A stretch of 64,000 bases of DNA from Bilabrum cf. latius (taxonomy: Eukaryota), in the NCBI GenBank assembly GCA_965178125.1, contig OZ237753.1, forward strand, positions 248,001 through 312,000. Reading direction: 5' to 3'. Each line of letters starts with the position of its first letter. The first letter of the stretch is position 1. Positions 1-64,000 of this stretch are shown here, in pieces. The translations under genes and the position numbers were made by a program. The notes below the pieces were generated by a model. It ran no database searches. It worked only from the letters and a program-made list of their open reading frames with translations, and was not told the origin of the DNA.

Positions 1-1
1 G

Positions 2-3000
2 CCGCCACCGCCGCCCCCTTCCCAGCTCGACCTCGAGCGCTCCTTCCACCAGTTTTTTATCCAGGAACGGTCGCGAACCTTCATTGGCAGGGAGGCACTT
101 TTGGATCGGCTGGAACGACACGCGAACGGGGACGCGTCTGGCGAGTCGCTGCCCCTTGTGGTGTCCGGGGTGCCAGGCAGCGGCAAGACGAGCCTAGTGT
201 GTCACTTCGCCAAGCGGTACCAGACGGAGCACCCGACGTGCTTCACACTGATGCACGTCGTGAGTGCATCGCCTACTAGCACCGACATCCGCGAGACGCT
301 GGTCAGGCTCTGCAAGGAACTAGCCCTGCATTTCCAGGAGCTCAACTTTGACGCGGAGGACGAGGAGGCGGAATACGCTGACGTTCGAGAACGTTTCACC
401 GTCCTACTCGCGGAGGCCGGCCAGCAAGCCATCAGGCAGAACTCGCACGTGCTACTGGTAATGGACGCAATCAACCAGCTGAACCCATTCCACAACAGCT
501 ACACAGGGGACTGGTTGCCGGCCTATTCACCTGCTGGCGTGCGCACGATCGTCAGCACAACCCCTGAGGCAGCCATCCTGCAGCACCTGATGCGCCGAGA
601 TCCGCCCCCTCCACAGGTGGAGGTGCCTGCTCTGTCGGTGGAAGAACGCAAAGAAATCGTGGTCAAGTACCTCGCGGTGTTCCGAAAGAGGCTGCTGGCC
701 CAGCAGCTAGACCTAATCATGAAGAAGCGCGACAGTCACAAGCCGCTATACCTGATGACGGTGTCGGAGGAGCTCCGGCTCCAGGCGCAGTACGGGGCCG
801 ATGGGTCCGGTGTAGATGACACTATCCGGCAGTTTCCCGGAAACATCCCCGAGCTTATGAGCGTGGTGCTGGAGCGGGTGGAGCGTGATCTCTCCCAGTG
901 GGCGAGGAGCCTGGATCCAGGCATGCTGGAAGGGTTCGATGCCAGTGCGCGGTCCACGGATGAAGACGTCAAAGCGGAGGCAGAGGCGGAGGTAGAGGGC
1001 AGGAAAGAGGACGATGAGGAGGATGACGAAGACAGCAGCAAGGATAGTGAGGATGAGGGTAAGGAGGCACCAGCTGCTGATGCTAGCGGCGAAGGGCCGG
1101 CCTCTGGCGCCGGCGCAGATGCAGCCACGGACAAGTCGGCATCCCTGGCAACCGTCGCCGCCCGAGTGGGCAAGCACATCGTCAGCGAGGCCCTCTGTTT
1201 GCTCGAGTGCAGCAGGCACGGCCTCCGCGAGTACGAGCTTCTCGAGCTGCTTGCTCCCAAGGGGAGGGAGAGGCTGCCGCCCGTGGTGTGGGCTAGGCTG
1301 TACCGCTCCCTTGAGATCTACCTGCGTCCTGTTGGCGAGGAGGACCAGGGCGGCACCATTGGGTTCTTCCATCTGCAGCTGCCTTTTGCCATTCGAAGGC
1401 GATACTTAGAAGGGGCTACTAGCAAGGAGGCCGCCGTGTGCACGAGGCTGGCTGACTACTTCCAGCGCAAGGCAGATCCCACCGATGACGGCCGCTGGCT
1501 GGGCAACTCCAAGAGGTATGTCAGCGATCTCGTCTTCTACCAGCTGACTTCCCACGATCTTGGCAGGCTCAAGAGCACGCTGGGAGACATTCTGTTCATC
1601 GAGAGAACCGCACAGATGGGTGCCGGTATGATGGAGCGGCTTCTTCGGGACTATAACGAGGTGCAAGAGGTCATTCGAACGCTGCCATACGCGGTGCTCA
1701 AGAGGGCGCTCAGGAACCTCCCGGCGAAGGAGGGCAGCCGGGCGGCCCAGCTCCAGTGGATTGGTGAATAGGGCGTCTTCGTCGCGGCCAACCACTCCAT
1801 CTTCACCGCTGAGCCCCAGCTTACGTTTCAGTCGGCTATCAACTCGCCAACCGCAAGCTATCCTCACAAGGCAGCCGAGGGCCTGCTGAGCGACTAGACT
1901 AGGGCCATTCAGGCGGCTATGGATGTGCGCGAGCGAGACATTGAGAGTACCGCCGCCAAGCTGCTTGAGCCAGCTACCCTGGACCGCCTCGCGATCCTTG
2001 CCAACCGACAGCTGCAGGAACAGCGCGAGGCGCGCGCGGCATCAAAGTCCTCGGGCAGAAGAGGCGTGGCCTTGTCCTCAAGATCGGGCCCACTGCGGAG
2101 GTCTCTAGCGCCTGCTTCTTCCTTTTCGCAAAGGACCCGCAGCGGTAGTCCCTCCAGGCTGCCAAGGGGCACACCGTCCCAGTACGGCAGGAGGCAGATG
2201 CTGGCTGCGGGAGCCAAGGAAGCTGCAAGCAGGTTGAAGCGGTCTGGTACAAGCGTGCCTTCGAATGGCAGCGGTCGGGGCATGGGATCGCAACTGAGGA
2301 GCTTTAGCGGAGGCAGTCGCAACTCGAGGGGTATTGCTGGGGGTTCGATGCTGACCGCTCTCCCTGCAGTCTCTGAAGGCGGGGGCGGAGATGATCGACC
2401 CGTGGACGAGCCCGTGGACCCTGTGATTCGTGAGATGCTTCGCAGGGAAATAGTCAGGCGCAGGGACTGGGACCTGGCCCGAGTGACCCGGTCAATGCGC
2501 GCCGAGCGAGTGCCCCGGCGGTTCTTCCAGTGGCTCAACAAGCCGCAGCGCTCCAGGATCGTTGCCGATTTCGCAGGACTATCCTCCGAGGTGACCTGCC
2601 TAGCCGTGCCTCCGGACGAGTCTGCCAATTCGGTGGCAGTGGCGTTCAAGGACGGCAACATCCAGCAGGTCGACTCGAGCACCGGGGAGATGGTGAAGGA
2701 ACTGGTGGTAGGTGGGCACACAGACGCGGTGCGAACCCTGCAGTACAGCGGCGACTCTATCCGCCTAGTGAGCGGCGGTGACGACCACAAGCTGGTTGTC
2801 TGGGACGTGTCGTCCGGCGTCAGGCTCGACGAGCTCGTGGGTCACGAGGGCGGCGTGACTGCCGCGGTGTGGATCGAGAACTACGGCAGGAAGGGCGCGC
2901 ACGACGACTCGTTCAGCGATATCCGAGACGCCGAAAAAGACGAAAAATCGGGACGGGGCTCCAGGGGAGGAAAAGGTAGCCGCACTGGTACTTCTGCCGT

Positions 3001-6000
3001 ATCTGCGGGAGGAATTGGCACACGGGAGCGGAGGCAACGGAGCACGAAAGGAAGCCGGCACGGCGGCTCTTCTCGGCGGAGGCACAGAATCAGACGCGGT
3101 GCCCGCTCGCTGCTGACCGCTTCTCTCGATGGCGGGCTCATTCTGTGGAGAGAAAAGACATCGCACGGTGCGAGTGGCACGCAGGAGACGACCTACGAGA
3201 GCTCTCCGCAGAAGGACTGGATGCCCTCGCCTGCCATGAGCCTGGCTTTCTCCGAGGTCACTGGCATTGCCGCGGCCGGGCACGCCGACGGATCGGTCCA
3301 GGTGTGGGATGCGAGAGTGCCTGCCCTTGGGCTGATCGATATGGCGACGATTCAGGCGCATCGATTCACGAGTGTCAGCGCGATATCCTTTTCTCCAGAT
3401 GGCAGGCGGATGCTAACCGCCACGATGGACTGCGAGCTGAAGGTGTGGCGGCGGCGCACAAGAGGAGGTGAGGTCGTGTGGGAGGAGAACGCGGCTCGTG
3501 GGGGCTCTTCCAACGCAGGTGGTGGACACAGCGCCTCCATCACAACCGCGTGCTTTTCTCAGGATGGGCACAGGTTCCTCACTGCCGGTCTCGACAAGAA
3601 GGTGATCCTGTGGGACTCGGAGTCGGCACAAGAGCTGACGCAGTTTTCGGGACACTCGGATGCGGTGTACTGCGCAGCCTTCATGTATACGGAGCATGCG
3701 GGTGCGGGGAACGACAAGCAGGGGTCGCGGAGGGAGTCGATCGTGAGCGGGTCCTACGACAAGACCATCAAAGTGTGGGATGCGAGCGCGTCTGAACGAG
3801 AGCTTGAATCAAATGCAGTTATTCGCGTGGTGGGCGAGTCGCAGTTCGGGGATGCCGGCAGGTATTCTGCGCTAGTCGGTGGCCCGCTCAGCCGGGACTC
3901 GGACCACTCAAGATACACAGGCCCTGACAGCGGGGCGGGATCACGGCCTCGGAGAGGCCGGAGATTCAGTTTTTCCGGGCACGCGATCGTGCCAAAGCCC
4001 GGAACCGCATCGTCTGCGGGTGGATCCTCCCCCGGCCAGGCCTCCGGCGACGGTAGCGAGGGGTCTTCCACCTCGGCCGGTAGGGGCCTGATGGGCCGCG
4101 TGATGTCTCGCGTGCAGCAAAGCGCTGCTGCAGGGCGCGTCGGTGGCGCATCTGCTCTTCGCAATGTTGGAAAGTCATCGCGGTCGCTGGCGGCGCAGTA
4201 CGCGCACACCTTTGACCAGGGGTCAGGTAGCTCTGGCCGCCGATCCAAGGGTCCCGTAGGCTCTCACAGCGACAGAGTTACGGCATCGACAGTATCTGAG
4301 GACGGCAGCGTCGCAGTTACTGGATCGGCAGACTGTGAGATAAAGGTGTGGAACCTGCGCGACGGCAGCGAAGCCTGCGTGCTGGTCGGGCACGAGGCCC
4401 CCATATCGGCTTTAACCATGTCGATGACCAAGTCCATGCTCGCGTCTGGGGACGAAGACGGCGTCGTGAATCTGTGGGACGGGAAGTCCTTTGAGCACCT
4501 GATGACGCTGAATGCGTGGTACAAGCTGAACGTGACATGCCTCGCATTTGCGGAGGTGACTGTGATGGACCGGGAGGCCGGCCGTGCAGGTCGCAAGGAC
4601 TTGCTTATCGCCGCGTGCGCAGACGGCAGGTGCAAGGCCTGGGACACGTATACCGGTGCGGAGCACGAGACACCGATCCCGCACGTCTTTGACGGGCCGA
4701 TCGTAGCTATGCGATACCTGGTGGCAGGCTCTGCTGCTCTCCCTGAGACAGCCATGCCAGCGCCTGTCAACTCTGGAATCCTGGAAAGGTCTGTGCTCCC
4801 CACCATCGAGCAGCTCGATGCCAGCGGAATCGGTTCCGCGATTGGGATTGACCCGGCTGACAGCAACGGACCCAGCTCTGTTGGAAACCTGTCTGCGCGC
4901 AGTCGCAATAGCGACCCCCCCACTTCGGCCCGAAGCTCCGCTTCTGGTGCGCAGCCTACCCCTCGCACTGGCGTGTGGGCCTCGATCGGATCTGCCGCTA
5001 ACACGCCGTTTGCGGCTCTTGTCGTGGCTGCTCGCAAGGAGAAGCAAAGGCAGAAACGGCTTCAGGAGAGGGAGCGGGAACGCGCTAACAGCCCGGCGCA
5101 GCAGGCGCACAGGTCGCCCCGTGTGTGGGAAATGTCGGGCCAGAAGCTCAGCAAGGCCATCAAGAACCTCCTGCAGAACCAATTCGTCGAAGACTCAGAT
5201 GGGCTCCTTGGGTCTCTCACTGCCGACAGCGCGCTGGCACAGGCTCTGGCCGAGGAGGGCGTGCTGGCTGTGTCGAGCATCACCAGCATTGAGATCGACC
5301 CAGACCTGGCGGCCGAGCTGGAACGAGGGGAGGTGCAGGGTGGCATTAGGGCCTGGGTCTCCGAAGGTGCCGGCGTGAAGCAGCTGGGCATTGTGGCTGG
5401 TAGTCGGTCGGGCGCCCACCACCAGGGCAGCGGGCAGCTCGCCCTGCAGAACGGTCAGGAGGGCATTGGGGGCGCCCTTGTTCCGGCGGGACCTGACGAC
5501 GAGTCGCAAGCAGCTGCCGCGAAGCGTGCAGAGGCCGCCGGAAAATCTGCTCGCGAGCGCGTCCTCAAAGCCCACGAGGGCAAGCTTACGATCCACATTG
5601 GCAAGGCTGAGAAGCCTTCGAAACAAGGGTCATCCAGCAGCAAGACAAGCGATGGGGCTGGTTCCAGCAGGCGCGGCAGGCGTCGCGGCGGCCTGCCGCC
5701 TTCCATGGCCGGAATGAACGCTTCGTCGCAGTCGATTGCGGGTGGTGCTGCTGCGGGTGGTCGCGCTCGCAGCGGCAGCTCAAGCAAGGGCGGGGATAGG
5801 CACGGGAACGTTCTCGATCGAATGGTATCCTTTGACACGTCGGCAGTGGGGAGCCGCAGAGCCAGCGAGGCTATCGCGCGCAGGCAGAGCTCCATTGTGG
5901 ACCCCACGCAAGCCAAGCGCGTTGCTGCCCACGATGAAGACGAGTGCAGCTTCACGTACGGCACCCTAGATCCGAAGGCGACCGTTGCTGGCATCACGCC

Positions 6001-9000
6001 GATGCACACGCGGGACCGGCTTGCTCTGGTCGGTTCCGATGGCTCGTTTCGCCTGCTTGACCTCAACACGATGGAGATGAGGCACGAGGACAAGTGCCCC
6101 TCCAAGAGCGAGGGCCCGGTGACACACGTGCCGGGCATGGGTGCTGGCGCAAGAGAGGGTCGGTCGCTGTCATTGGCAGCCGCAAGCATCAGCCATGACG
6201 GATCCAGGATTGCCGTTGCTCCCGAGTCCGTCATGGCTGACGCGCCTCTAAGCGTCGGCCCGCTCGCCTCGCTCTACCGCCTGTAGGAAGCCGACGTGGT
6301 TGGCCCGCTGCCAACACGGGTTGGTGATCCTGGTGATGACAAGCAGAGGGGTGTGTCCGCTGCCAGGAAGCAGAGGCACAAGCAGGCTGAGGCTCAGAGG
6401 AGGGCAGCAGCGAGGAGGCAGCGCAAACTGGAGCGGGATGTGGCTCGGCAGCAGGAGCGGATTAGGCGGAAACGAAGGAAGCGGGCGGAGCTTTTGGCGA
6501 AAATCAAGGCGGAGAGAGCCTTGGAGAAGCAGAAGAGGAAGGAAGAGGGCGGCGAGGACGAAGACGAGGATGAAGAGGAAGACGACGACGATCTCATCGC
6601 ATAGTTCGAGATGGACGCGGAGGACGAGGGCGAGGAGAAATCCGGAAGCGCGAGCGAGCACGATTCCGAGTCCTCTGCGGATGAGGAGGAGGACCAGAAG
6701 GACGCCGAAGCAAATGACGCCGAACAGCTGGACGATGAGGCCCGCAAGAGAGTCAGGCACGTGCAAGCAGTCGACTTCGCGCTGGATGGGTCACTGTGTG
6801 CCGTGGGATGCCGAGAGAGGCAAATGGTTGTGCTTGACCCGGCTCGCCCAGAACGTGGCCCATTGGGCCTCTTTATGGCCATGGGTGAAGTGACTACCGT
6901 GTCCATGGGAGAGGGGGTGAGGCCGTGGCACGGCACGGACGACATGTACAGCGAGGAGGCCAGGCTTACCAACCGGCTGTGGGACCTTGTTGGTGATCCT
7001 GAGGTGGCCGTGGGGGCGGGTGATGAAACGGAAGGGGGCGGGCTGGAAGGTGGCACAGCCGGCGATTCTCTGGATATGGACGACCTGGATGTGCACGCTG
7101 GCTTCTCCGGCGATCTGGGTCTGGACTCGAAGGCCAGCTCGAGGAGCGGCCGCCGCGATGTTTCGCCCAAATCGGGCAGGTACCGAGGAGGCAGCGGATC
7201 TCCGAAGAAACCAACGACCGCTTCTAGACCCGGTAGGCGATCTCCAAGGAGCAGGCCTGGGTCCCGCGCGTCCGATAAATCGGCATCTTCGGCCGAGGGA
7301 TCGCAGGGCGGAGGCACAACCCCACGAGCTGACCCCATCCCTGAATCGTTGCGGACTGCAGCGAAGCGGCTGCTGCAGCGCGCACCCGATGGGCGCAAGA
7401 CGATGCGACGGCGCGTTGGCGACGGGATTGGCGGGGTGGGGGTCGTGGTTGTGGGCGATGCGACAGGAGCCGTGTTTGTTCTGAAGCTGCAAGACGTGCT
7501 GCGCACTGCAGAAGCTGAACGGCACCAGCAGCGGCTGTAGCAGGTCAAGAAGGAGCTTGAAGCGCTAGAGAAAAAGAAGAGGGAACAAGAAGAATACGCG
7601 AGAGAGGAGGAGAGGCAGAGGGAGGAGGCCGAATAGCTGCGGATCGAGCGGCGCAAGACGGTCCCAATGCGACTGTTCGAGTTCGGGAACGGTCGCAGGG
7701 CGGTGTCGGCAGAGCCCGACAAGCTACTGACGTCCGACACGAAGGATGGCAGGCGGCTTGTGAGGGAGATCCTGGCGACGCTTGGCCTTGACATTGGACT
7801 CGTCAGAGACGCCCGCGCGACCGAGCTCAGGGCTGCGTGCCCCTTTCACCACCGCAGGCCGCAGCCAGTTCTCACCTTCGGTTAGGCAGTCAAATTGAGA
7901 AGACCGATGACACCGCTGACACCCCGAAGAGATGGACGGACCCAAGTAAGGCTGCCGTCCGTGCCCAGCTTCAGGCCCGGTCTCGAGCCGGGCGCTAGCT
8001 TCATGGCTATGGTCCGCCAGTCGAGTCGCCCTCACATGCAGGCCGGGGGCACAGCAGCCAGCCAGGGCAGGAGGCACACGGCCATGGTCGTCCGCGCAGG
8101 ATCAGAGCGGCGCATCAGCAGTGCCAGAAGCGCAAGACCGGAACAAGCCATGGTGGCGGCAGTGGGCGGAAGCTCTCGCAAGCTCGACATCGATGGCAGC
8201 GCCGCCCACCGCCCGCGGTCCGCAGCAGCATCCAGAAGCTCCCCGAAGTCAAGTGCTAGGCAGGATGGTGCATCGGGAGGAGGCAAGCCACCGACGCACC
8301 GCGACAGACCCACGTCAGCGCGGTCCATCTCTTCCATCCGCAGCCTGGACCTCGACGGCGCCTCTCCAGCGGATATTCGCGCCATGTCGGCAGGCCGGCG
8401 GCGTAGCGAGGCTGCTGGCGGGAAGAAGGGTGGCTCGCAGGACGATCTGACCGAGAAAGATGCAGCGAAGAGGGCGGCAGCTCAGCTTGCTATTCCCGAA
8501 GGCGTCAATCCAGAAGAGCAGCTGCCGCCCCAGGAGGAGGCTCTGCTCGGCGTGGATCCCGATGATTCCGCGCTGCTGACCGATGCCTTTGGGGTGGCTG
8601 ACCGAGACAGGGGCAGGGCGCTCGTGAAGCGCCTCCGGCTTGCCACGAAGCTGATGATGAAGATGTCTCCGCGCAGCTCCACTGGTTCGGGAGCCGGCGG
8701 TGGAAAGGCTGCTTCGGATGCCTCGGTATCGCAGGCGGTGCAGCCTGCCGGGCGGCGTTCTCCCAAGGTTACCGGCGGGTTGTCCTCTGGCTCTTCGAAG
8801 CGGGCTGGGACGGCAGCTGGCGGTCGCTCTGGTACCGCTGATTTATCGTCAAAGGCAGGCAAGGAGCAGTCGTCAAAGGCAGCGAAAGAATCCAAGGACA
8901 CTGACCCAACAGAAGAGGAGAAGGCAGCCCTGGGCGACTTGGATCTCGACGAGGAGATCGACGTGGCGCGGGCGAGATCGAGGTACTTTTGCAGGCCCCG

Positions 9001-10057: not shown

Positions 10058-10291
10058 ATCGGCAAAATCTTCAAATATAGCCTTGCTTTTGAATTATGGG
10101 AGGGTTTTGTTCATTGGAATTTCTTTGATCCCAATTGCGCAGATCCGGCGACGCAGCATCCGGAATGATCTCGCGACCTCGTCTTGCGACCAGTCTGGAT
10201 CAGCCACGCGCAGTCTGCACGCGCCGATTCGATTCGCGCACATCTCTGCCCTATTCTTCCAAATCGTCGCCATAGAACTAGGACAGACACT

Positions 10292-16200: not shown

Positions 16201-16899
16201 TTGATCATGCTTAAGGACGCGTGTCTCCCGCTCCGAGGTCCAGCGGGTGAACTCAGGGGCGTGGTTGGATCCAGCAACGCAACCGATGACGAGATTGCCC
16301 AAGTCCTTCAACGCTGCGAATCCGTCAGTGACGGAATCCTGGACGAGGGGGCGTATGGCGCGATCGTGTCGCTGGTTGCAAAGGGTAGAAAACTCGAATT
16401 CGACCGCGAGATACCAGATCCTGGGCATCCCCTTTTCCAGCCGGACCGCCGCAAGCTCCACCGGGATATGCTGCAGCTAGAGCGGCCGTTCCTGAGGATG
16501 GCCCTGTCGGGCATGGGCAAGGCCGTGGAAGAGGCGGTGGCTTCCAGCATTGATACGGGTCGACTAGTGCAGATCATCTTCAGCGCGATCTTTGCTTGTG
16601 GGTTCGGCACCTTTGTAGTCTGCGCGCAGGGCGCGATTCAGGCCCAGTTAGTTGGGCCGCTGCAGTCCGCCAGAGCCCTGCTAGCTGCGCTGCCGGCAGA
16701 GGTGATCAGTAGCGTCCCGCCGCTGCGAGCAGTAGTGAAGACGGTGGTGACAGAGGTATAGCTGAGCAGCAAAGGGCGCGACGCATCGGCCTTTTCTGGC
16801 CAGATCAGTGATATCGTGCGAAGGGCAGAACAGGGAGCCGGGAATCAGAGCTCAAGTGCTCCTAAAAGCACGTACTAGATCGAAGGTGAAAAAGTATGA
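10292..16899 (+). CDS. TmcB/TmcC-like multi-pass membrane protein with a PAS-like domain, ~2,116 aa, 2 introns, about 14 in-frame TAG
   Basis: ATG 10292; exons 10292-10488, 10653-10854, 10948-16899 (spliced length divisible by 3). N-terminal hydrophobic helices with QPY...N motif, QLW...PDL helical segment, PAS-like GTITSVSPSLCSMLG...VIGQ...LFPPP, and two C-terminal TM-ectodomain-TM modules ending FVPRKV and ALPAEVI. Ends TGA TGA. Confidence 0.7.
10489..10652 (+). other. spliceosomal intron (164 nt), gene 2
   Basis: GTAAGC...TCTCGCAG; removal restores the frame (FEP|LFEWL). Confidence 0.75.
10855..10947 (+). other. spliceosomal intron (93 nt), gene 2
   Basis: GTAAGT...GCCGCAG; contains an in-frame TAA; joins LNST|VLFLP. 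Confidence 0.8.
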
Positions 16900-52800: not shown

Positions 52801-55800
52801 AGGGGAAGATAGCGGAGGCATGGCGTTGCCGCCCCGCCTGCGCCTGCCCGGTGTTGTTGAGGTGGGAGCCAGAAAGTTCTCTTCTGTCATGGCAGCGAAC
52901 GTTTGGATGGAATCACTAGGTGGCAACAGTCCAAGGTGGGAATCAAGCGCGTGGCTGGCAGCTGCAAATGATGTCAAACCTGACACGCGCCCAAGCGCCA
53001 CCGCGACGCCATCAAGCCCGTCAGCGTACTCCCTTAGCAATCCACAGTGACCCATGCGGCAGAAGTACGGGTGAGAAAGCGGGTCTGGTCCGCCCTCTAT
53101 GTTGGTACCCTCCTCATCTGCAGCGTCACAATCATCCATCGCCACAGAGGATGCAAGCTTGTCAGCTTCACCAGACTCAGACTTGGAGTCCAAGGAATGG
53201 GTCTCTTCGAAGCAGATTGGGCGACATTCGAAAAACTAGCTACCAAAGCCTTGCAGGTACGCCAGGCCTTCAATCATTTTCCTATGGGGATTGCTAGCTT
53301 CGTCTGAGGCACTTACATCGGACTGCGCTAAAGTGCAACATAGCTCGTGCATGTCCTTGCTTAGACTTAGGAGACCAACCGGTACAGGCACTTTCCCCAT
53401 AGGAGCCTTTCCTTTGACTGTACTGGCACGGGTTGGCTGCTTGCCGTCCCACTCCACGCTAAAGATGGCCCATGGAGATGCTTGCTGCTGCATAAGGCCG
53501 AGCTCAATGGAAGAGAAAGTGGGATTGTGCTGGAGTGAGCTGTGCCCAAGCATGCCACCAGCAATGCGAAGAGCATGCGAGGTGGACTCGCACTGCAGCT
53601 ACTGAAAGCCAGCCAAAAGAGGCTACAGATCTGTACTGAAGCACAGTTTGTCGTATTCATCGTGCCACAGCTGCACCATTCTCGGCTGAACGACGTATCC
53701 CATGTGTAAATTGCTCGTCACTCCCTCTTGAACAAGCAAGTTCCGCGGCCTAACACGCATAAGAAGCTTGCCCGAGCGATGCATCCCGGCGGTAGCCGTG
53801 CTTGAAACGGCGCAGCCCATGATTGCATCCCCCCATTGAGAGCCCGGCGTCGAGTTCAGCAGCAAGGGGCACAAAACTTGGCCAATAGTTTGATCATCAA
53901 GCTCGATATCCTCCCCTTTATGAAACTTGCGGACTTGCTCGGCACGACGCTTACACAGCTCTGACAGATAATCTAAGTCGTTCTCAACAGCCTTCACAAG
54001 CTTCTTGATCCAAACAACCGCAACCAGAAGGTCGTTGCCAGGTTCACTCTACATTGCGTGTTGCAGGGTCGTGTCATACCGAATGGGCGTGCCGCTTAAG
54101 AAGGTTAACTATTTCTGGCCCTACTTCTAAGGAACGTCTCGCGGATCGCTCGTGTACACGTGCACTGAAGGACTCGTCCCAGACATCTCCAACGACCGTG
54201 AATCGTCGTTTAGCTGTACAGAGACAATCGGCGGCAGGGCGTACTTCCTGCAGATAGCCGAGCAAACGTCCCCCACGGTGGTCTCTGGTCCGACCCCAGG
54301 CATCATAAAAGTGCCATCAGGCTACTCATGGAAGAATTTGCAAATTGCGTCTAGTCTCTTGGCTCGCTGTCTGATCAAGGCGACAGCAGTCTTGGCAGAT
54401 GCGGCCAGGACCAGACCACACATCTTCTCCACTTTCTCCAATGCCGCAATGCTGGCCTCGACATCCTGAAACGGCTTCTCCGGGCATCCGGCCACGAACT
54501 TGTGGCGGCCGACCAGTGTCGCTGGTACCAAAGAAAAAAATACATTTCGCAAATTGCTGCTCGCACCAGAACCCAGAGTTGACATGCCCGTCGCGATAGA
54601 CCTCCGAAGAGGCACAGGACAAGAGCCACGAATGGATGCGATTGCAAACGAAGTTCTTGACTGTGGCTGCAGCCTGCTGGAAAGCAGCTGCCTGGTCTTT
54701 TCTGCAAATTCTCCTTCGTTCGCTTTGGTCATGGATAAGGTGGTTTGTAAAGCACGCCGATCCTGGTCTCCAATACCGATCAAGCCCCTGGAGGCATTCA
54801 AATAGCTGCCACCGCCTGCAAGCGAGGCAATTAAGCGGTCCCCGGAGCAAAACATTGGCGACTTGTTGTAACTTCGATTGAGGCAGCGGAAAGCATCGCG
54901 GCGCGATAGTGCAATTTGAATGCCATCACTGGTGTCTGACGAGCCGTATAGCGTGTCTCCAAGCCAGCAATCGCGGGAGAGCTCCTGATCCAGCACCTAA
55001 TAATTCCTACCTGAAGCCTAGCGCCACTTCAAGCTAGACCCGTTCCATGACGTGACGCATGCGTCTTCGCCTTGGTTGAGCACCTCGCAAGCCCCGTGCT
55101 CATCGATCTCTTGCAGGCCAGCTAGTCGTGTCTGCAGCAGTAGCACTCGCAATAGGGTGAGAAGACGATGCAAAGACTCCTCCGCGCAGAAGGCCTACTA
55201 GGCCATTGTAGCCCTGCCGGCCGAAACTAAAACCCTCTCGGCATTCTCTCGAACTCGCCCTGCCGAAGATGCCTCGGAACTATCGGCCGAAGATGAGGAC
55301 TAGCCTACCTCATCGCATGTCTCCAAGAAAGCCGTGAGAGCTTGTCTGGGAACTCGAACGCTCGCAGACCCACAGCCCATCGACGGTGAGGAGGATCGGC
55401 AGCTCTGCAATAGACTATCGTGAACTTGGCCAGTCGGGACAGTGACGGGTCCGAAAATCGAGGGCTCAAATCCGCCCCCTACATGCTGAACGTGGGCTGC
55501 TACACTTTGAGGCGCATCATCACCGCCAGCTGATGCGGCTGCAGCTGCAACCAGGGCCGAATGCATATCAATTGGACCAGATCGCACACCATCCAGACTG
55601 TCTGTGCAATCATTGATAAGAGCAACGCAGATACGGATGAGGGCTCGCCTGGTGGCCGTCACGATTGGGCCATCGGAAGCCAGCCTCGGGAGCAAAGACA
55701 AAAAAGAAACGCAATCATCAGCGACGGCTCGACTTTGCGCTGTCAACAGGCACTACAAATGGAGACCAGTACCGGCAAGATCCAGCGGGCTGTACACCGG

Positions 55801-58800
55801 GCTTGTGGCATCGCTGTAGGCTGGGTTACCTATTGTCACTCTGTGAAGCGGATCGTGGTGGTCACAGGCTGAGGCACTTCGTCTCACGACGAATTTCCCA
55901 GGGCCACTCATTAAAGCGCCCTCAATGCTGGACTTGGCATACTTGGATACGCAAGAGAGAACGTTGGCGCTGCCTCTAGCGCACAGGCTTCGCCGCATTC
56001 CCATAAGGACCAAGCTAGAGAGCATGATGTCCTCTGACTGTCCATTGATGCTATCAAAGACGTTGCTGAGGCCCGATGCCGACGTCTTGATATCTCCAGG
56101 CTTGCTTGACGTCGATACTGTTTGGAGCACATCTGACTATCCAGGGATGCTCTGCATGTGCGGACCGATAGCACGAACGAGTGCCAGCTGGCTTCGTGTC
56201 ATTTTGGCTGGGTTGTCGGTACAGCCGGCCAAAACCGACGTGGCCAAGCGAATTGCGGCAGTAGAGCTTGTGCGAATTCTCTGCGGTGATGCAGCTATCG
56301 AGGCATTGTACAGCAGAGCTCCATTTCTTGAGGGGAGCGGCAAAATGCTGGCGCAAAAGTAGGCCAGAGCGTCATTACAAGCAGAGACCGACTGAGGTTG
56401 CTAGCGGATAACACCGTCCATACCCCGCGTAATCCTATCAATATCACTGCTGTCGATCCTAGCGATACCATCGGCGCGAGAGGTGCTGCAGAGAGCTGCG
56501 ATTGCTCTCACTACGACAGCAAAGGGTAGCCTCTCCGGCGGTCTGTCATCGAAGAGGCTCGGGCTTGCAGGTGACTGCACGCCAGTCTCTAAACGAGCCG
56601 ATTTGGCTGCCCTTTCTTCCTATTGGAGCGAAGACGCCTGGCGAGCAGATGGTCTCCTCTTCCGTTTTTTTGCTAGGGTGACAGACTCTGAATGGTCAGA
56701 AGACTCGCCTGACTCGGGCGAGGCTTTGGAGTTGGCTGCTAGGGCACTGCTCGCTGAGGCGCTGCTGGCTGCCGACGAAGATTGCTGAGGCGAGGTCTTC
56801 GTTGTCTTGCATTCTGTCTCGTCAGATGGAAGGTCATCACCCGCATCAATGTCCCACCATCGCAAGATAGCATGCACGAACACCTGGTCAGATGACCACC
56901 AAAGAGTATCACCGCCTTCGATGGTGGGGTCATAAATGGTAGCCCCTTGTGCGTCATTCGCTGCTAGCATTTCACTGCAGCGCTGCCCATCCCCTACGCG
57001 GCCACAAAGGCCAATCGAGATGCCTGGATGTGACTCGTCAGACGCAATTGATCGCGCGATCTTGGAAATGAGTGGTGGCCACTGCTGCGGCAGCTTGCAT
57101 TTCTTCCTCGAGTCACGTCCATCTTTCCCATGAGTTGGCAACCGGCAGAGCAGAACCGCAGCTGCAAGCGCTCGGCGAGCGTCCTACTTCAAGAGAACGG
57201 CCAAGCACGACCTGTACACTGACACGTTAATTCTCGCCGCGTTCGCAATGGACAAACCGCCGATCGTAATCATGAAATCGCAGAGAAATGAAGCAACTTG
57301 CTCTGCGGAATGGCTCAGCTCCTTAGAATCGTCTCCTTGCCCCGCCAGCGCTCGACGCAGTGCCTGCATCGGAGTAGCCAGCCGATGATCGAGCTCGTCG
57401 TGAATTCTGTGAATCGCAAAAGCAGATTCGTTGGCTCGGCCACATTTTGGCGAAAAGGGCCAGGCCGTGGCATCACACGTGGGGTATGGTAGCCTGAACT
57501 GGTCTGAAGCCGCCATTCCTGGCTTGGTTGCAGAGGATGACGTCGATCGGAGCCGCTAGTCATCGTCCTGGGCGACTTCAGCCAAAAACTTTGCGTCCGA
57601 CCACCACCTACTGCGCATGTAGACCTCAGCCCTCCCTGTGGACAGATGGGTGCCGTGGGATCCCCTCTGCAATGACTGCCCGAACCATCCTGATGACGCT
57701 GAATCAACGGCAGCCCCCATTCCTTCGTAGTCACTGCGCTGCTGTGCCGAATGGGGTCCCCAGTGCCTCCCAATTATGCCTTCGACCGGTATGCAGCCTT
57801 GTATCTCTTCTGCTTCTACATCGTCGTCATACGGCGTGCTGGCCGTGACCAATGGCAAACCTTGCTTGGTGGCAGAAACGCTAGCGATTCCAGCGCCAAG
57901 AACGTCACGCAGATCCAGGGCTGGAGGCGGCACATGGCGGAAATACAGGAATTGCAGCATCATCACTGATGCACTCGCAACGGTGGTCCGACACCCAACC
58001 AGCCTGTCACTAGCTTGCAGACCTGTCAGCAAATTCCGTAGCAGAGAACTGATCGCCGTCGGAAACTTCTCTCCTACGTTGCGCTCAGGCATGCGGCAGC
58101 CGCCGGCAAAAATAACACCTGACGCCTTGGCCTGCTCTTCGAGGTCTCTGCGTTCCTTGCTGTCCTCGTCGTACTCATGAAGGCTGACGTACAGCCCGGG
58201 GGGGCAGGAGGCGGAATCATCCGCCCCAGCGCCTGAAGCAGCACCGCGACTGCTTGCCATAGCGGTCTCGCCATGGCTGCTCTTGCTGTCGGAACGCGCA
58301 GTGTTGGAGTATTCGACAGCCAGCCTCAAATCTGCTTCAAACCGAGGCAGCCTGAGCAAGCGTCTAACCTAGTCAGCCTCGCCGTACTCCAAGTAGCAAT
58401 CGGCCAGTAAGGCTATCAAAAACTGCAACATAGAGTATGGCTCGGGTAAATCATACATGCCGTGCAAATAGGCCGCATCTACGAACTCGTCGGCAGCAAA
58501 TGGGCCCAGATACGTCTCAGCTTCACCTAGGTCCGCTGCACCAGAAGCAGCCCCCGAGGGATAGGCTGCGGCGGGTGCACTGACTGCTTCATGCGATTGG
58601 AAGGAGCCATCAAGTGCACCAAGCTCCTTCATAGCACCCTTCACCGCTTCCTAAGCAGCTCTTTGCACTGCACCGATACCCCTCAAGTCTGCATCAGTAG
58701 GGGCCGCTGGCAGCTTCGAGGCGGTCGCCGGTGGCAGCGATTCACCTCCCATAGGCACTTGCGAATCTTCCACAGCCATGCCATCGAACAGCTCCCCCAA

Positions 58801-60575
58801 AGCATCTCCCTGTGTAGCCTCTGAATCACCCTGCTGCGATTCTTCGAGATCCAGACCCCCACCAGTCTCGGACGCACGTTTGGGACCGGCAGATGACTTG
58901 GGAAGTCCACCCGATGATGCAGATGCTACTGCGCCGCCTCTAGCACCAGAGCTCGTAGCACTAGCACCTTCGTCTTCAAGAGGACCCGTGGGGCTTTCCA
59001 TGGCTAGTTTGAGGTATCTGCGGGCCTCAAGTCTGAGTGGTTGCATGTATTGTAGGTAGACGTCATGATTCAGGCCGCTCTGAATGACGTGGTTGGCACC
59101 CTGTAATGCAGCTGCCATGGCAGCGGAACTCAAGTTTTCATCGCCTTTGATCGCCGCCATGACAATTCTGGCCGCAATCGTGACATCCCAGAGGCCAAGT
59201 TCCACGAGAAGGGACAGGAAATCCAAGCATCGTTTCAAGACCTCCGTGTGCATCCTGTCCCCGAATACTCTTCTCAGCTAGCGCCTCTGCTCAAAGAGAA
59301 GCTTTCGGAACGTAACATTCTTGAGCCATAGGGTCGTTCTTTTGTTGGAGTTGTTGCGACAGTGCGTTGCGAGGTCCTTCAGCTCCTTCACGGAATCCAT
59401 CCTGCGCTTCAGGATTGGCGTCTGCGTACCCTGCAGAGCGATCGATAGCCGCATCAGGTATATCTGCCTCGAGAGCATGGTGGCGTCTAATACAGGCTTT
59501 GAAAACTTTTCAATGATATTGTAGGCATAATTCATGCTGTCTATCGACGTGTCTCTTTGCTCCTGCGTAAGCCAAGAAAAGGGAGCAGACAGCTTTCAGG
59601 CACGGCATGCAACAGCACAACATGCATACTGCTTGAGCTGCGACCGCATCACATATATCATAATTCTGCATGCTCACCTTGACAGACAGCCTGCCAACCC
59701 GTTCAACCATCGCCGCGATGGCGGCTGCCTGGGCCTCGGCCATGCCCTCTGGCGGATCGTAGCGGCACTGGTCAAACATATTGCGCACAACTTGGCAAGT
59801 AGATAGCATTCCTACCCATTTCCTGACGGTTGCGATGGCGGTGCCGTCCTCGCACTCTGCTATACGCCGCGCAACGACGCCAGCGAGGCGCTGGTGGAGC
59901 CGTGTCCGATGCAGCTGTTCGAGAATTGGACGTAGACTCTGCGCCGTGAGCTCCTCAGACCTTGGCCGAATGCCTCTGAAATACTAATGCATGTCTGGGT
60001 CAATCGGGCCAAGCGATGGCCCAGCGACGCCTTTTGCATCCGGAACTCGAACGAAGAGGGCGAATCTGAGGGTCTAGTTGAAGTGATCGAGCTCCGCTGC
60101 AGAGTGTTCACCAGACTCTATCTATGCTAGCACATAGTCGGCAGTCTGGAGGCAGCAGCACACCTATCTCAGTCCAGGAAAGTGGTCTGGTGACGGCTGA
60201 CGGCGCTCACTTAGTTGCCTGTCGACAAGCATGAACTTGCGGTACAACAGCTTTGCCATCGCATTGCCGTGCTGCAAGAGAAAATTCTTAAGCTGCTCGT
60301 CTGGAATTTGGTCACTTTGGCTGCGCAATGAAGGCGAAGGAAGAAGGGAGCATGAAGAGGATAGGCGTGGAAGGCGAAGGCCAAGCTCAGGATAATCTCA
60401 TCTTGCCTCACCCATGGCTGTTTTCATATAGATAAGAACAGAGCTTATCAGGATATTCATTTCGCTGCATTTGCTGCGAAGCTTCAAGGATGATTGGATG
60501 CATTGATACACCAGGAGCACCGCTAGTGGTCCCTGCTGCCTCAGCTGGTCGACTAGCCTGCGACTGCGATGCCAT
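43885..60575 (-). CDS. Giant ubiquitin-specific protease (USP9/USP24/USP34-like, peptidase C19), ~5,450 aa, 3 introns, more than 40 in-frame TAG
   Basis: Single minus-strand frame from 59562 to TGA at 43885-43887, broken only by TAG wherever I traced it. Cys box GLINPGMHCYLLSVLQQLF (Cys 49708-49710), QDQNDANE, LPRVLCLHMNRF, FPEVLDMWPY, His box GIVIHKGTANSGHYYSY (His 48688-48690), WIRFDD. The putative ATG 60575 and the 5' exons are less certain. Confidence 0.8.
50039..50076. repeat. (GAC)n(GAT)n trinucleotide tract encoding poly-Ser in the minus-strand USP gene
   Basis: Reads TCA/TCG codons in the USP frame. Confidence 0.8.
59563..59677 (-). other. intron (115 nt), USP gene
   Basis: GTGAGC...TTACGCAG; joins RLSVK|EQRDTS. 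Confidence 0.8.
60097..60210 (-). other. intron (114 nt), USP gene
   Basis: GTGAGC...CTCTGCAG, phase 1, keeps the frame open. Confidence 0.65.
60321..60411 (-). other. intron (91 nt), USP gene
   Basis: GTGAGG...pyrimidine tract...TTGCGCAG, phase 2. Confidence 0.65.
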
Positions 60576-60810
60576 CCTCCCAAAGATAAAATTAGCAGAC
60601 TTGCTTGGACTTCTTGCAAATCAAGAAATAATTCGTGCAACTCCCGGCAATGTGTATTAATTCCCCCTCTCTTCAAATGTCCCTTGCGGAACCAAAGCAT
60701 GGCGCCGCGCACTGCCAGGGGCAGTCCGCCGTTGCGGGCAAAGTGGCCCGCCGCGGGGCGAATTACACGCTTTATCAAAATTAGATTGGTTCAAAATTGC
60801 CAGTTACTAA

Positions 60811-63800
60811 TCAACACCACATCTGCCATCCGTCATACATCGTGCACAGCCTCCGAGGGTCCTGAGCCTGCTTAATAAGCGCGTCGACCTGCCGCTCCAC
60901 CGGAAGAGCAACACCTGGAGTGACTTCCTACCCAGACAGCTTGTCGCTCACCCTCGCAATGGCACCCTCCACGGTCTGCCGCACCGTCTCGTTGTGCCTC
61001 ATGAGCCCACCTGGCGGCCGGCTCGTGCCACTCTCCCCGAGAACCTCAACGTCGCTATCCTCAAACAAATCGTCCACTCCTGCATCGGAACCCGCCGCAC
61101 CAGCTTCTTTCGTGCCACTAGTAGCACCTTTTCCCTTGGATGCGCCACTTTGAGCGGGGAGCTGGTCTTCTGCAGAGGGACCCTCTTCAACCGACGAAGA
61201 AGAAGACGAAACGGCTTTGTGGGCCAGCTTCTCCACGACACTCTGCCACTTCGCGAGGGGGTCAGCAAGGAACGTTCGTAGCAAGGAGAGAACCATGGAG
61301 CGCCGTTCTCGCAGGCACTCCATCGAGCTCTCCATGGAGGCCCTGAACGTCCCCTCAACGCCCCGCACGCCCATGCAGCTCACAACCTCGCGGGTCAATC
61401 GGAACGGAACCCACTCCGGGCAGGTCTGCAGCTTGGCTTGCTCAAAGCAAATGCCGAAATCAATGTGAACGACCTCGTGCCTATTGATGTCAAGCCGCAT
61501 GTTGCCACCGTGCCGATCCCCCAGCCCAGTCACGTGGCCCAACGCACTGCTAGTGGCTGCAGACTTGGCATACATGGCGCGGGCAAGCCGCTCGTCTCTC
61601 GCCCCTGGGAACCGAATGCTGGCCACGTGCTGCAACACGGGCTGATGCATCGCCATGGCTACGAGTAGTGCTTCAAGCTCAGTGAGGGTGGGAACTCCAG
61701 AAGCGTTTGTCGGCCGTCCAGCACCATCGCCGGCTGCGGCCACAATGCCCTCGGCTGCCGTGGCCGCTTGCAGATCAGCTCGGTGCCTTCCAAACCACCG
61801 TCTAATCTCATGAATACTGGCTTCGTTGGGTCTGTATAGCTTCTAGAGGGGGGGGATGCCGGCAGGGCCGTTGCCATCGATGATGAGGTTCTGGTGAGCT
61901 GCAAGGCTGGACACGTACTCCAGCATCCCTGTCTTTCGACTGAGCGGCATGATCTGGTGCTCTCTCATTCTGAGTCCTTTGGCCTTGGCGTGCGGGTCTG
62001 CTGCCAGCAGAACATTAAAGATGCGAAGCAACCTTGACACCATTTGGTCCTGTCGCATGTCTTCGTTCGGGCCTTTGTGCACCGCGCGATGCTTCATGCC
62101 ATCGGTGCCGAACAGTGTTACGGTCCTCGGGCGTGAAGCGCCGCTCCCTTCAATCTTCACTTTCGCAATCATCTGAATAACTCCAATCCTCGGCCGGATT
62201 TCCAGTAGATCGCTTGGAGCGCCGTCAGCGGTGCCACCAAAGGAGACTCGACAGTCGAAGCCTTCCCGTTCGGCTACGGCTACAGCGGCTGAATTGTCGC
62301 TGGGCCAACCACTGGTCACGTACCCGGCACTCTCGATTCCAATACCAGCCCCTGTGCTTGGATCTGCAGAGCGGCTGTCTCTGCTGTGCTCATCGACAGC
62401 GGTCAAGAAGCTGCTGAGCGCCACTGAGTTCACCCCGTCAGCATCCATCTCTGCAGTCGCAGTGAACACGGGCAGATGCCTCAGCAGGTCTCTGCCTCGC
62501 AATTCTTCCATCAGTACGAAAACAGATCGCATGCCGCCCGAGGAGAGCCCAGCGCTGGCGCGAGTCGGCTTCCGGCCAGAGCGCGACGACTGCCCTTTGC
62601 CAGTGCCACGCGGGTCAATTGCATTCGTAAAGTCGCCCCCGTCAACGTCACAGAGGACCTCTTGCTTGGATAAATCTAGCATCGAGCTCCGGGGATCGAT
62701 CTTTTTCTGGTCGCGCAGAGCGATGGCAATCGACGCTGCCCAGCCAAGTCTAGCAACTGCAATGCCACGTGTGACGGATGCTGACCCGCGGCTTGCACCA
62801 GTAATGATGTCCCGACTTCTTCTTTCCGCAACAAGCATGTCTGACGTCACATCACTCTCCTTCATCCCTGCTGTTGCGAACGCGTGCTACAGAAGTGCCG
62901 GCAACGTGCCGTACGTCCTTCGCACCAACATCTTCGTCAGAAGCCCGGGGATAAGCCGCTGGATAAACTCGCTCCTCTGCCGGTCCATCGCGGCAAGCTG
63001 TTCTGCTGGCAGGGGCACGTACTTATCGGAGGCTGCGTCGGCAAAGAGCCTCACAGCTATCTAGTTCGCTGCCGGCAGCATGATGCGTACCGGCAAATGC
63101 CGCAGCGCAGACGCGGCTTCTTTCGCGACGCCAGCGTAGCCTCCAAGCTCAAACACAATCTGCAAGAGACAGAAGAGGCTACCGAGCTCTACAGCCGCCA
63201 CTGGGGCCCCCTCCATAGCACGGACATGTTCCGAAGACAGAAGCGGAGTCGATCCTGCCATGCTGGAGCTTGGCTGATTATCTGCCAAGTGAGCGGAATG
63301 CCGAGGTTGCAGGGGCAAGACACTCGGAGTCTACAAGGCAAGAAAGCGCCCGTAGCTACTCACAGCAATTAAGGCTGCCTCCTTGTGCTATCGCATCAGT
63401 CCGCCTAGCCTGGTGCTGAACTGGGTGACGAGAGTTCTCAAGTTGCCCATGGACCGGTAGACGTCGTTGTAGTGCATGTCAGGCATGACCTGCTAGAGCC
63501 TCTCGACCATCGCGTCTCTCGACTATTTCCATGCCACTTGTGCCTCGTCTATGAGCTGGTTGAGACTCTTGTCCGAACCCCTTTGCCTGTTGCGCTGCTC
63601 CAGCAAAGCTTTCTTTCTCAAGTTCAGGTCATCGAACTCCCTTTTCATTGTATACAGGTTGTTCCGCAGCAACGTATCGTGCACAGAACGCTATTTCTCG
63701 TACAATTGGTGCTACCCTTGGAAAGACGAACTAGCGAATACAGACTCAATCCTAATTCGACATGCGTCTGCGAATTGTGCGGCGTGCAAGTGCCCCACGG

Positions 63801-63999
63801 CCTGCATCGCACGCCACCAACCGGCTTCTGCAGCCATGCTGGCACTCTCCCTCGATTGGCTGCAGGGTGTTGACTCCGCAGGAGTGTCCTGCCTTACCTT
63901 GCCCAAAGCACGCAGAGCTCTGGTTGCAGCCGACAGAAGCTCGCGCGCCTCATCTGCAACGGATTGCCCTGCATCGCCTATGCTAGTAGCACCATGACC
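60811..63999 (-). CDS. ATM: PIKK kinase, ATM/Tel1-like (end of FAT, kinase, FATC); 5' part lies outside the window; 10 in-frame TAG
   Basis: KGPNEDMRQD, GLGDRHGGN, VHIDFGICFEQAK, PEWVPFRLTRE, MGVRGVEGTFR; FATC VERQVDALIKQAQDPRRLCTMYDGWQMWC then TGA at 60811-60813. PIKK membership is firm; the ATM subfamily call is less so. Confidence 0.75.
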
Positions 64000-64000
64000 C

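What the first reader, a model, noticed from the sequence alone, without database searches (positions are those of the whole stretch)
1..64000. Non-standard nuclear genetic code: UAG read as a sense codon (most likely Gln)
Seen: in all five genes, on both strands, roughly 100 in-frame breaks (manual count) are TAG, with no frameshift; domains continue across them and every gene ends at TGA. Known: UAG-only reassignment is rare in nuclear genomes (UAG=Gln in the fornicate Iotanema spirale and some ciliates, UAG=Leu in a rhizarian; NCBI table 15 encodes UAG=Gln). Inference: the high GC and ~90-160 nt introns do not look ciliate-like, so this may be an independent and possibly undescribed reassignment in another protist lineage.
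Basis: partly seen in the sequence, partly recalled or inferred. Interest (0 to 1): 0.95.

Follow-up and report, generated by a model that had tools for sequence, protein, structure and literature searches.

The report
UAG is a sense codon here
In this GC-rich protist nuclear DNA the stop codon UAG occurs about 120 times inside five very large, expressed genes and most likely codes for glutamine, a rare kind of genetic-code change in an organism that is still unidentified.

Summary
Nine ORF blocks that make up five genes on both strands hold 120 in-frame TAG among 19,934 codons, with no in-frame TAA or TGA. All five genes end in TGA. Giant ORFs of 5,236, 3,913, 3,351 and 3,027 codons appear only when TAG is read as sense. 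Reading TGA or TAA as sense does not open them, and shuffled sequence does not give them. Pfam domains run across TAG sites. Spliced, transcript-like contigs match the DNA exactly over 60 of the 61 TAGs in USP exons 2-3, so editing and splicing do not explain them. TAA is not a synonym: none seen where 23-126 would be expected. Glutamine is the best-supported meaning but rests on few sites. Unnamed relatives 81-93% identical give Q in four of five comparisons and E in one. One conserved USP site is Q in remote homologues. One conserved ATM site is H. A substitution-matrix score gives Q 19.8 bits, E 9.2 and H 3.2. No genome was held, so tRNA, eRF1 and lineage are untested. The best named homologues are only 33-36% identical (Cafeteria, Capsaspora). 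The kind is known (Iotanema type); the host lineage may be new.

The parts
2..10057 (+). Gene 1 (5' end cut by the window): AAA_16/NACHT-like ATPase, WD40 propellers, C-terminal LSDAT/SLOG domain. 3,351 codons, 8 in-frame TAG, ends in TGA.
10939..16899 (+). Gene 2: multi-pass membrane protein with a TmcB-type TPR region. 1,986 codons, 13 in-frame TAG, the last 7 codons before the stop. Ends in TGA followed by a second TGA.
17456..43423 (+). Gene 3: one giant multi-exon gene with a signal-peptide-like start (read by eye from the translation, not tested), Laminin_G_3/pentraxin repeats, cadherin repeats, IPT/TIG repeats and a C-terminal membrane region. About 31 in-frame TAG. Ends in TGA followed by TAA. 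The junction near 27400-27640 is unresolved.
41184..41286 (+). Intron of gene 3, 103 nt, GTGAGT...CGCAG, seen as a joint in spliced contigs of runs X6 and X7.
41612..41729 (+). Intron of gene 3, 118 nt, GTGAGT...TGCAG, seen as a joint in contigs of runs X4 and X7. The spliced frame stays open to the TGA at 43421-43423.
29050..29140 (+). Predicted intron of gene 3, 91 nt, GTGAGT...CGCAG. The apparent stop at 29051-29053 is part of its donor site. With a second predicted intron at 29392-29478 (87 nt) the frame runs on without a stop. Not covered by the laid reads.
43885..60690 (-). Gene 4: giant ubiquitin-specific protease of about 5,500 codons in three exons (about 60412-60690, 59678-60320, 43885-59562). 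61 in-frame TAG in exons 2-3, the last 3 codons before the TGA stop.
59563..59677 (-). Intron of gene 4, 115 nt, GTGAGC...CGCAG on the minus strand, seen as a joint in contigs of X4 and X7. The DNA run X1 reads straight through it.
60321..60411 (-). Intron of gene 4, 91 nt, GTGAGG...CGCAG on the minus strand, seen as a joint in contigs of X4 and X7.
60811..63999 (-). Gene 5 (5' end cut by the window): ATM/Tel1-like PIKK with PI3_PI4 kinase and FATC domains. 1,062 codons, 10 in-frame TAG, ends in TGA.
63691..63714 (-). Two TAG codons (ATM residues 96 and 103; 63712-63714 and 63691-63693). Two unnamed relatives 87.5% identical both carry Q at both sites, within a run of 64 aligned residues that has one other difference.
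60976..60978 (-). CAG (Gln, ATM residue 1008) at the place where the ORF of a 93%-identical relative (P0008, on a 3,404-nt contig) stops.
52111..52113 (-). CAG (Gln, USP residue 2475) at the place where the ORF of an 81%-identical relative (P0189, on a 9,081-nt contig) stops.
49567..49569 (-). TAG at USP residue 3323. Q stands here in 4 of 5 remote homologues and in human USP47.
61843..61845 (-). TAG at ATM residue 719. 64 of 70 aligned remote homologues have His here. This counts against a simple match to Gln.
58369..58371 (-). TAG at USP residue 389. The 81%-identical relative P0158 has Glu here, in a stretch with several other substitutions.

Best explanation
The organism has reassigned UAG, and only UAG, from stop to sense in its nuclear code, most likely to glutamine. 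UGA ends all five genes seen. UAA never occurs in frame, so it is still a stop or is unassigned.

Shown: UAG is read through as a normal codon, about 120 times in five expressed genes, and it is present in the mRNA.

Inferred from a few comparisons: the residue inserted is Gln.

Inferred from what is known of other such codes, and not tested here: decoding by a cognate tRNA-Gln with anticodon CUA, one base away from tRNA-Gln(CUG), which pairs with UAG but not UAA, together with an eRF1 that no longer recognises UAG.

At least one related species (the 81-93% identical fragments) appears to share the code.
For: Only TAG interrupts the frames: 120 TAG, 0 TAA, 0 TGA in 19,934 codons.

Only TAG=sense opens ORFs of 1,062-5,236 codons.

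Pfam domains span TAG sites.

Contigs of runs X4, X6 and X7 carry four GT..AG joints, while the DNA run X1 reads through those introns. X4 records 13 and 14 match the window with 0 other letters and 0 gaps over 43736-50027, 50085-59561 and 59677-60320. That covers 60 of the 61 TAGs of USP exons 2-3.

Sixty-one TAGs in one reading frame need near-complete decoding. This is my inference.

TAG lies 3 and 7 codons before the real TGA stops of two genes.

TAA is not sense: 0 seen, 23-126 expected from the A/G ratios of 13 other codon pairs, and 38 expected from CAA/CAG.

Evidence for Gln:
- P0011 and P0188 have Q at ATM 96 and 103.
- The ORFs of relatives P0008 and P0189, on contigs far longer than the ORFs, stop where the window has CAG.
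- Two relatives' ORFs stop exactly at window TAGs, ATM 159 and USP 660.
- USP 3323 is Q in 4 of 5 remote homologues and in USP47.
- The matrix score gives Q 19.8 bits, E 9.2, H 3.2 and every other residue below 0.
- The base after TAG has the same distribution as the base after CAG.
Against: The amino acid rests on few sites.

One of the five close comparisons gives E (USP 389). The 58%-identical relative also gives E (ATM 1024).

ATM 719 is H in 64 of 70 remote homologues.

Using only the three direct sites, Q leads E by just 3.5 bits.

The stop codons that end the relatives' ORFs were not seen as DNA. That they are TAG is assumed.

The likelihood test on neighbouring residues ranks L, R and K at or above Q, so it is inconclusive.

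One TAG sits where cadherin repeats usually have Gly (my reading of the repeats; one search aligned that site with Q and A).

No tRNA, eRF1 or peptide evidence exists.

Only five stop codons were seen, so use of UAG or UAA as a terminator elsewhere is not excluded.

The tool labels the RNA nature of X4, X6 and X7 as a guess. I infer it from the joints.
Confidence: 0.8

Rival explanations
1. UAG is a sense codon but codes for another amino acid. Glutamate is the main candidate, as in peritrich ciliates and an oligohymenophorean. Leucine (as in the rhizarian exLh), histidine or serine are remote ones.
For: E stands at window TAG sites in two relatives, USP 389 and ATM 1024. H stands at ATM 719 in 64 of 70 remote homologues. 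The neighbouring-residue profile of TAG resembles that of L, R and K as much as that of Q. UAG=Leu, Glu and Ser codes exist (passages read in PMC11687900).
Against: Under E, four of the five comparisons with the 81-93% identical relative would be mismatches, and all four would be to Q. Two of them fall in a run of 64 aligned residues with a single other difference. Matrix scores: Q 19.8, E 9.2, H 3.2 bits; L is not among the eight best-scoring residues. USP 3323 is a conserved Q.
Confidence: 0.12
2. UAG and UAA are both reassigned to Gln, the common UAR=Gln code of many ciliates, hexamitin diplomonads, some ulvophytes, oxymonads and Amoeboaphelidium. On this view TAA is merely rare here because the genome is GC-rich.
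For: UAG and UAA nearly always change together (PMC5304391 and PMC11687900, passages). GC3 is 0.57-0.72.
Against: There are 0 in-frame TAA in 19,934 codons. From CAA/CAG = 0.31 about 38 are expected, and the lowest estimate from 13 codon pairs is 23, which gives a Poisson probability near 1e-10. Off-frame TAA occurs about 64 times per frame. Gene 3 has TAA directly after its TGA stop.
Confidence: 0.03
3. UAG has a dual, context-dependent meaning: sense inside genes and stop near the 3' end, as in Condylostoma or, for UAA, Blastocrithidia.
For: Only five gene ends were seen, so termination at UAG elsewhere cannot be excluded.
Against: TAG lies 3 codons (USP) and 7 codons (gene 2) before the real TGA stops and the frame runs on to TGA. 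None of the 5 genes ends in TAG.
Confidence: 0.04
4. The TAGs are not translated as such. They could be pseudogene lesions, assembly errors, sites of U-to-C RNA editing, or sites removed by splicing.
For: None found.
Against: About 120 lesions, all of one kind, with no frameshift and no TAA or TGA. The same letters stand in contigs of four runs from three studies. Spliced contigs carry the TAGs unchanged, with 0 other letters over 16 kb. Two TAG positions are shared with a relative.
Confidence: 0.01

Closest known systems
Iotanema spirale (Fornicata) nuclear code: UAG = Gln, UAA and UGA = stop (Panek et al. 2017, PMC5304391; passages read)
   Same: Only UAG is reassigned, the likely meaning is Gln, and UAA is not used as sense. 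UAG is a minority Gln codon: about 8% there, and 13% here if TAG is Gln (120 of 893).
   Different: Iotanema ends genes mainly in UAA (104 of 119) and less often in UGA (15). Here 5 of 5 genes end in TGA. The window is GC-rich, with giant, intron-poor genes of metazoan-like adhesion domains. Its best named homologues are Cafeteria and Capsaspora, not metamonads. Common descent is very unlikely.
UAG-only reassignments in ciliates: Protocruzia tuzeti and two phyllopharyngean lineages (UAG = Gln), others UAG = Leu (McGowan et al. 2024, PMC11687900; Discussion passages read)
   Same: UAG is decoupled from UAA, and Gln is one of the meanings.
   Different: The window lies on a DNA contig of at least 34 kb. 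It has 59% GC, GT..AG introns of about 100 nt and genes of 6-26 kb. I recall this as unlike ciliate macronuclear DNA; I did not test it.
UAR = Gln code (NCBI table 6): many ciliates, hexamitins, some ulvophytes, Streblomastix, Amoeboaphelidium protococcarum
   Same: Stop-to-Gln reassignment that includes UAG, with UGA kept as stop.
   Different: TAA is not sense here (0 against at least 23 expected).

Amoeboaphelidium was considered as the source because ATM's best hits are opisthokonts. Its annotated proteins are in NCBI (accessions listed in PMC10459994), yet no NCBI protein closer than 33-36% identity was found for USP or ATM. This argument is indirect. The two primary aphelid papers were not seen.
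Rhizaria sp. exLh (UAG = Leu) and Scotinosphaera (UAG = Ser)
   Same: UAG-only reassignment in non-ciliate protists.
   Different: Relatives and conserved sites give Q, E or H here, never L or S. L and S are not among the eight best-scoring residues in the matrix test.

Membership tests
UAG-only stop-to-Gln nuclear code (Iotanema type; the obsolete NCBI table 15) | In-frame UAG inside conserved, expressed nuclear genes, without frameshifts | tested here: met
   120 TAG in 19,934 codons. Domains span them. Spliced contigs keep them.
UAG-only stop-to-Gln nuclear code (Iotanema type; the obsolete NCBI table 15) | UAG positions correspond to Gln in homologues | tested here: inconclusive
   Close relatives give Q in 4 of 5 comparisons and E in 1. 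A 58%-identical relative gives E. Of the conserved remote sites, one is Q and one is H. Score: Q 19.8 bits against E 9.2. This favours Gln, but the number of sites is small.
UAG-only stop-to-Gln nuclear code (Iotanema type; the obsolete NCBI table 15) | UAA is not used as a sense codon | tested here: met
   0 in-frame TAA against 23-126 expected. This covers the window only.
UAG-only stop-to-Gln nuclear code (Iotanema type; the obsolete NCBI table 15) | Genes end in UGA and/or UAA, never UAG | tested here: met
   5 of 5 genes end in TGA. With five genes, use of UAA as a stop was not observed.
UAG-only stop-to-Gln nuclear code (Iotanema type; the obsolete NCBI table 15) | A tRNA-Gln with anticodon CUA | not testable with these tools
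   No tRNA in the window. No genome is held.
UAG-only stop-to-Gln nuclear code (Iotanema type; the obsolete NCBI table 15) | eRF1 N-domain changes (GTS, NIKS, YxCxxxF, position 69) | not testable with these tools
   eRF1 is not in the window and no genome is held.
UAR = Gln code (NCBI table 6) | UAA used as a Gln codon alongside UAG | tested here: not met
   0 TAA in frame; 38 expected from CAA/CAG.
Context-dependent stop/sense codes (Condylostoma, Blastocrithidia) | The reassigned codon also ends genes, and is depleted just upstream of true stops | tested here: not met
   No gene ends in TAG. TAG lies 3 and 7 codons before TGA stops. Only five genes were seen.
UAG = Leu code (Rhizaria sp. exLh, some phyllopharyngeans) | UAG positions correspond to Leu in homologues | tested here: not met
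   No Leu at any of the six sites compared with close relatives. At the variable site ATM 1024, 12 of 130 remote homologues have L. L is not among the eight best-scoring residues.

The most novel reading that the evidence does not exclude
This is an independent UAG-to-Gln reassignment in a eukaryotic lineage where no nuclear code change has been reported. The owner would be a GC-rich, gene-dense heterotroph whose nearest named homologues are a bicosoecid stramenopile (USP) and unicellular holozoans (ATM). The code would be shared by at least two related species known only as unnamed assembly fragments, with UGA as the working stop. It would be one more case showing that UAG and UAA can be decoupled outside ciliates, and the first in a high-GC genome, where AT-driven 'codon capture' of UAR does not apply.
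Probability: 0.4. Interest if true: 0.8.

Novelty: new member of a known kind. Interest (0 to 1): 0.62.

Why it matters
Nuclear stop-codon reassignments outside ciliates are few. Cases where UAG changes meaning while UAA does not are fewer still. In the passages I read, the non-ciliate cases listed were Iotanema, an uncultured rhizarian and Scotinosphaera.

A further case in a GC-rich genome with UGA as its stop would test ideas about how such codes arise. It bears on mutation pressure against tRNA and eRF1 changes, and on why UAG can be separated from UAA.

There is a practical side as well. Standard-code gene callers shred this organism's genes. The public collections hold its relatives only as ORF fragments of 104-360 aa cut at TAG. 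Any annotation, phylogenomic matrix or metagenome binning that includes it will be wrong unless TAG is read as sense.

Tried and rejected
- **Whole genome.** None is held, so I could not scan for tRNA(CUA), find eRF1 or place the organism by rRNA.
- **Sequencing runs.** No RNA holder was listed. I took three runs to be RNA only because their contigs are spliced.
- **Gene 2 protein search.** No homologue at E <= 0.001 among 7,999 candidates.
- **Exact look-ups of standard-code window ORFs.** 1 of 10 was in the collection, and it stood alone in its cluster. This gave no new relatives.
- **Scans for close relatives with the ATM C-terminus.** Metagenome contigs gave one locus at 31% identity (L001). 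Prokaryote genome contigs gave none. Viral contigs gave none.
- **Internal repeats (cadherin, TIG, LamG) as a guide to the residue at TAG.** 13 sites aligned, with R 6, S 3, T 3, A 3, Q 2 and five other residues once each. Uninformative (one search failed because BLAST culled the internal hits).
- **Neighbouring-residue statistics.** Q is the most enriched neighbour of TAG (1.47x), but the likelihood test ranks L, R, K and Q together. Inconclusive.
- **Remote-homologue columns.** Only 2 of 10 ATM sites and 10 of 57 USP sites were aligned at all, and most are variable.
- **Amoeboaphelidium as the source.** Considered, and judged unlikely on indirect grounds.
- **Amoebophrya ex Karlodinium and Iotanema as the source.** Rejected: no in-frame TGA here, GC-rich, and TGA rather than UAA ends the genes.
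- **Rfam.** No match in the window.
- It failed on a frame slip of mine. I redid it with correct coordinates.
- **Supplementary files of papers.** Closed, and I did not ask for them. The eRF1 alignments and codon tables of PMC5304391 could bear on the comparison.
Full report
**What is there.** The window is eukaryotic nuclear DNA with 58.7% GC. About 95% of it is coding under the model below.

Under the standard code the longest stop-to-stop frame is 1,462 codons. Reading TAG as sense gives frames of 5,236, 3,913, 3,351, 3,027, 1,993 and 1,062 codons. Reading TGA or TAA as sense changes nothing, and three shuffles read with TAG as sense give at most 400 codons.

The frames encode recognisable eukaryotic proteins:
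- an AAA_16/NACHT-like, WD40 and LSDAT protein;
- a membrane protein with a TmcB-type TPR region;
- one giant adhesion-type protein with Laminin_G_3, cadherin and IPT/TIG repeats;
- a USP9X/24/34-like deubiquitinase of about 5,500 residues;
- an ATM/Tel1-like kinase with a FATC end.

**The observation.** In nine ORF blocks totalling 19,934 codons there are 120 in-frame TAG, no TAA and no TGA. After correcting gene models for introns the TAG count is 118-123. Summing the rows, the two other frames of the same ORFs hold about 64 TAA, 136 TAG and over 400 TGA per frame, so only TAG is tolerated in the coding frame. All five genes end in TGA. Gene 2 has TGA-TGA and gene 3 has TGA-TAA. Pfam matches to UCH, PI3_PI4_kinase, LSDAT, Laminin_G_3 and Cadherin run across TAG sites. 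'Roughly 100' is a slight undercount.

**Are the TAGs in the mRNA?** Seven public runs from three studies hold the stretch. I laid four of them on 41000-60999.

Run X1 behaves as DNA. One of its contigs runs unbroken over 50085-60999.

Contigs of X4, X6 and X7 carry four joints with GT..AG ends in the sense of the genes. They skip 103 and 118 nt on the plus strand and 115 and 91 nt on the minus strand. All four introns begin GTGAG and end CAG. The tool labels the RNA nature of these runs as a guess; I infer it from the joints.

X4 records 13 and 14 match the window with 0 other letters and 0 gaps over 43736-50027, 50085-59561 and 59677-60320. This covers 60 of the 61 TAGs of USP exons 2-3. The remaining TAG sits at the edge of a skipped serine-codon repeat. 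Contigs can hide minority variants, so raw reads would be firmer.

**UAG only.** If TAA were synonymous with TAG, the A/G ratios of 13 other codon pairs predict 23-126 in-frame TAA, and CAA/CAG predicts 38. None is present. TAG lies 3 codons before the USP stop and 7 codons before the stop of gene 2. That argues against a position-dependent dual meaning. With only five gene ends, termination at UAG or UAA elsewhere cannot be excluded.

**Which amino acid?** Remote homologues say little.
- Only 2 of 10 ATM sites and 10 of 57 USP sites align at all.
- USP residue 3323 is Q in 4 of 5 homologues and in human USP47.
- ATM residue 719 is H in 64 of 70 homologues.

The useful evidence comes from unnamed ORF fragments of close relatives. 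They turned up in the representative library and the word-index search and in one cluster look-up.
- P0011 and P0188 are 87.5% identical to ATM residues 55-158. They have Q at both window TAGs, 96 and 103, within a run of 64 aligned residues that has one other difference. They end just before window TAG 159.
- P0158 is 81% identical to USP 302-659. It has E at TAG 389, in a stretch with several substitutions, and ends just before TAG 660.
- P0189 (81%) and P0008 (93%) lie on contigs of 9,081 and 3,404 nt. Their ORFs stop where the window has CAG, at USP 2475 and ATM 1008.
- P0009 (58%) has E at TAG 1024.

These fragments are cut as a standard-code gene caller would cut a TAG-containing gene. 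The relative therefore very probably shares the code. The comparisons with it give Q four times and E once.

Summed substitution-matrix scores are Q 19.8 bits, E 9.2 and H 3.2, with every other residue below 0. With the three direct sites alone Q has 8.5 bits and E 5.0. Neighbouring-residue statistics and internal domain repeats were uninformative. I put Gln at about 0.8 and Glu as the main alternative.

**Mechanism.** By analogy with other UAG-only codes (PMC5304391, passages), a tRNA that reads UAG but not UAA must carry anticodon CUA. A tRNA-Gln(CUA) is one base away from tRNA-Gln(CUG), and eRF1 is expected to have lost UAG recognition. None of this could be tested. The window holds no tRNA or other Rfam family, and no genome is held.

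**Whose genome?** This is not resolved.
- The best named USP homologue is from Cafeteria roenbergensis: 33% identity, and 243 bits against 128 for the next hit.
- The best named ATM homologues are Capsaspora (36%), Creolimax, insects and a pedinophyte.
- No annotated protein from any named organism is close.
- Iotanema is excluded by its UAA-dominated stops.
- Amoebophrya ex Karlodinium is excluded by the absence of in-frame TGA here and by GC content.
- The window's DNA contig of at least 34 kb, its GC content and its introns look unlike ciliate macronuclear DNA. That contrast is from recall and was not tested.
- Amoeboaphelidium is reported as UAR=Gln. I saw this only as cited in PMC5304391, PMC6299283 and PMC11687900; the primary papers were not seen. 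It is unlikely to be the source, because its proteins are in NCBI yet none appeared among the hits. That argument is indirect.

**Novelty.** UAG-only reassignment to Gln is a known kind, found in Iotanema, Protocruzia and two phyllopharyngean lineages. Nine full-text searches found no report of such a code in a GC-rich non-ciliate, a stramenopile or a holozoan. The library lacks most subscription journals, and supplements were closed. I file it as a new member of a known kind. It would carry real interest if the lineage proves new.

Noticed in passing
window 41987-42871 (C-terminal membrane exon of gene 3): All four runs hold extra contigs that differ from the window at 7-23 places. Nearly all differences are at third codon positions, and depths are 2-9 times those of the neighbouring DNA. 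This looks like a multi-copy or allelic family of this exon. None of the differences falls on a TAG.
   Followed up: partly
window 43885-60690 against genes 1 and 3: TAG use follows codon GC. TAG is 21% of TAG+CAG+CAA in the USP gene (GC3 0.57) and 20% in ATM (GC3 0.64). It is 6-9% in genes 1 and 3 (GC3 0.69-0.71). CAA rises in parallel. This fits TAG behaving as a low-GC synonymous codon.
   Followed up: partly
window 16897-16902 and 43421-43426: Tandem stops: gene 2 ends TGA-TGA and gene 3 ends TGA-TAA. With only five genes this is no more than a hint that back-up stops are used.
   Followed up: no
window 41968, 43040, 52849, 59685: Contigs of X4 and X6 carry loose ends of 142-255 nt that leave the window sequence at the same four places in both runs. 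These could be alternative exons, paralogues or assembly chimeras.
   Followed up: no
window 2-10057: Unusual architecture: an AAA_16/NACHT-like ATPase, several WD40 propellers, long charged low-complexity linkers and a C-terminal LSDAT/SLOG domain of the TRPM type, all in one protein of over 3,350 residues.
   Followed up: no
window 27381-27386 and 55195-55200: Two pairs of adjacent TAG-TAG codons. In all, 10 of 120 TAGs have another TAG within two codons, where I estimate about 3 by chance. The pair at 27381 lies next to an unresolved exon junction and may be intronic.
   Followed up: partly
window 50028-50084: A run of serine codons in the USP gene (poly-Ser in the protein) was skipped by the read-laying tool as a repeat. 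One TAG (50083-50085) therefore lacks transcript-level confirmation.
   Followed up: no
whole window: Gene density is very high, about 95% coding. There are five genes of 6-26 kb, seven known or predicted introns of 87-118 nt that all begin GT(G/A)AG, and intergenic spacers of about 0.1-0.9 kb.
   Followed up: partly
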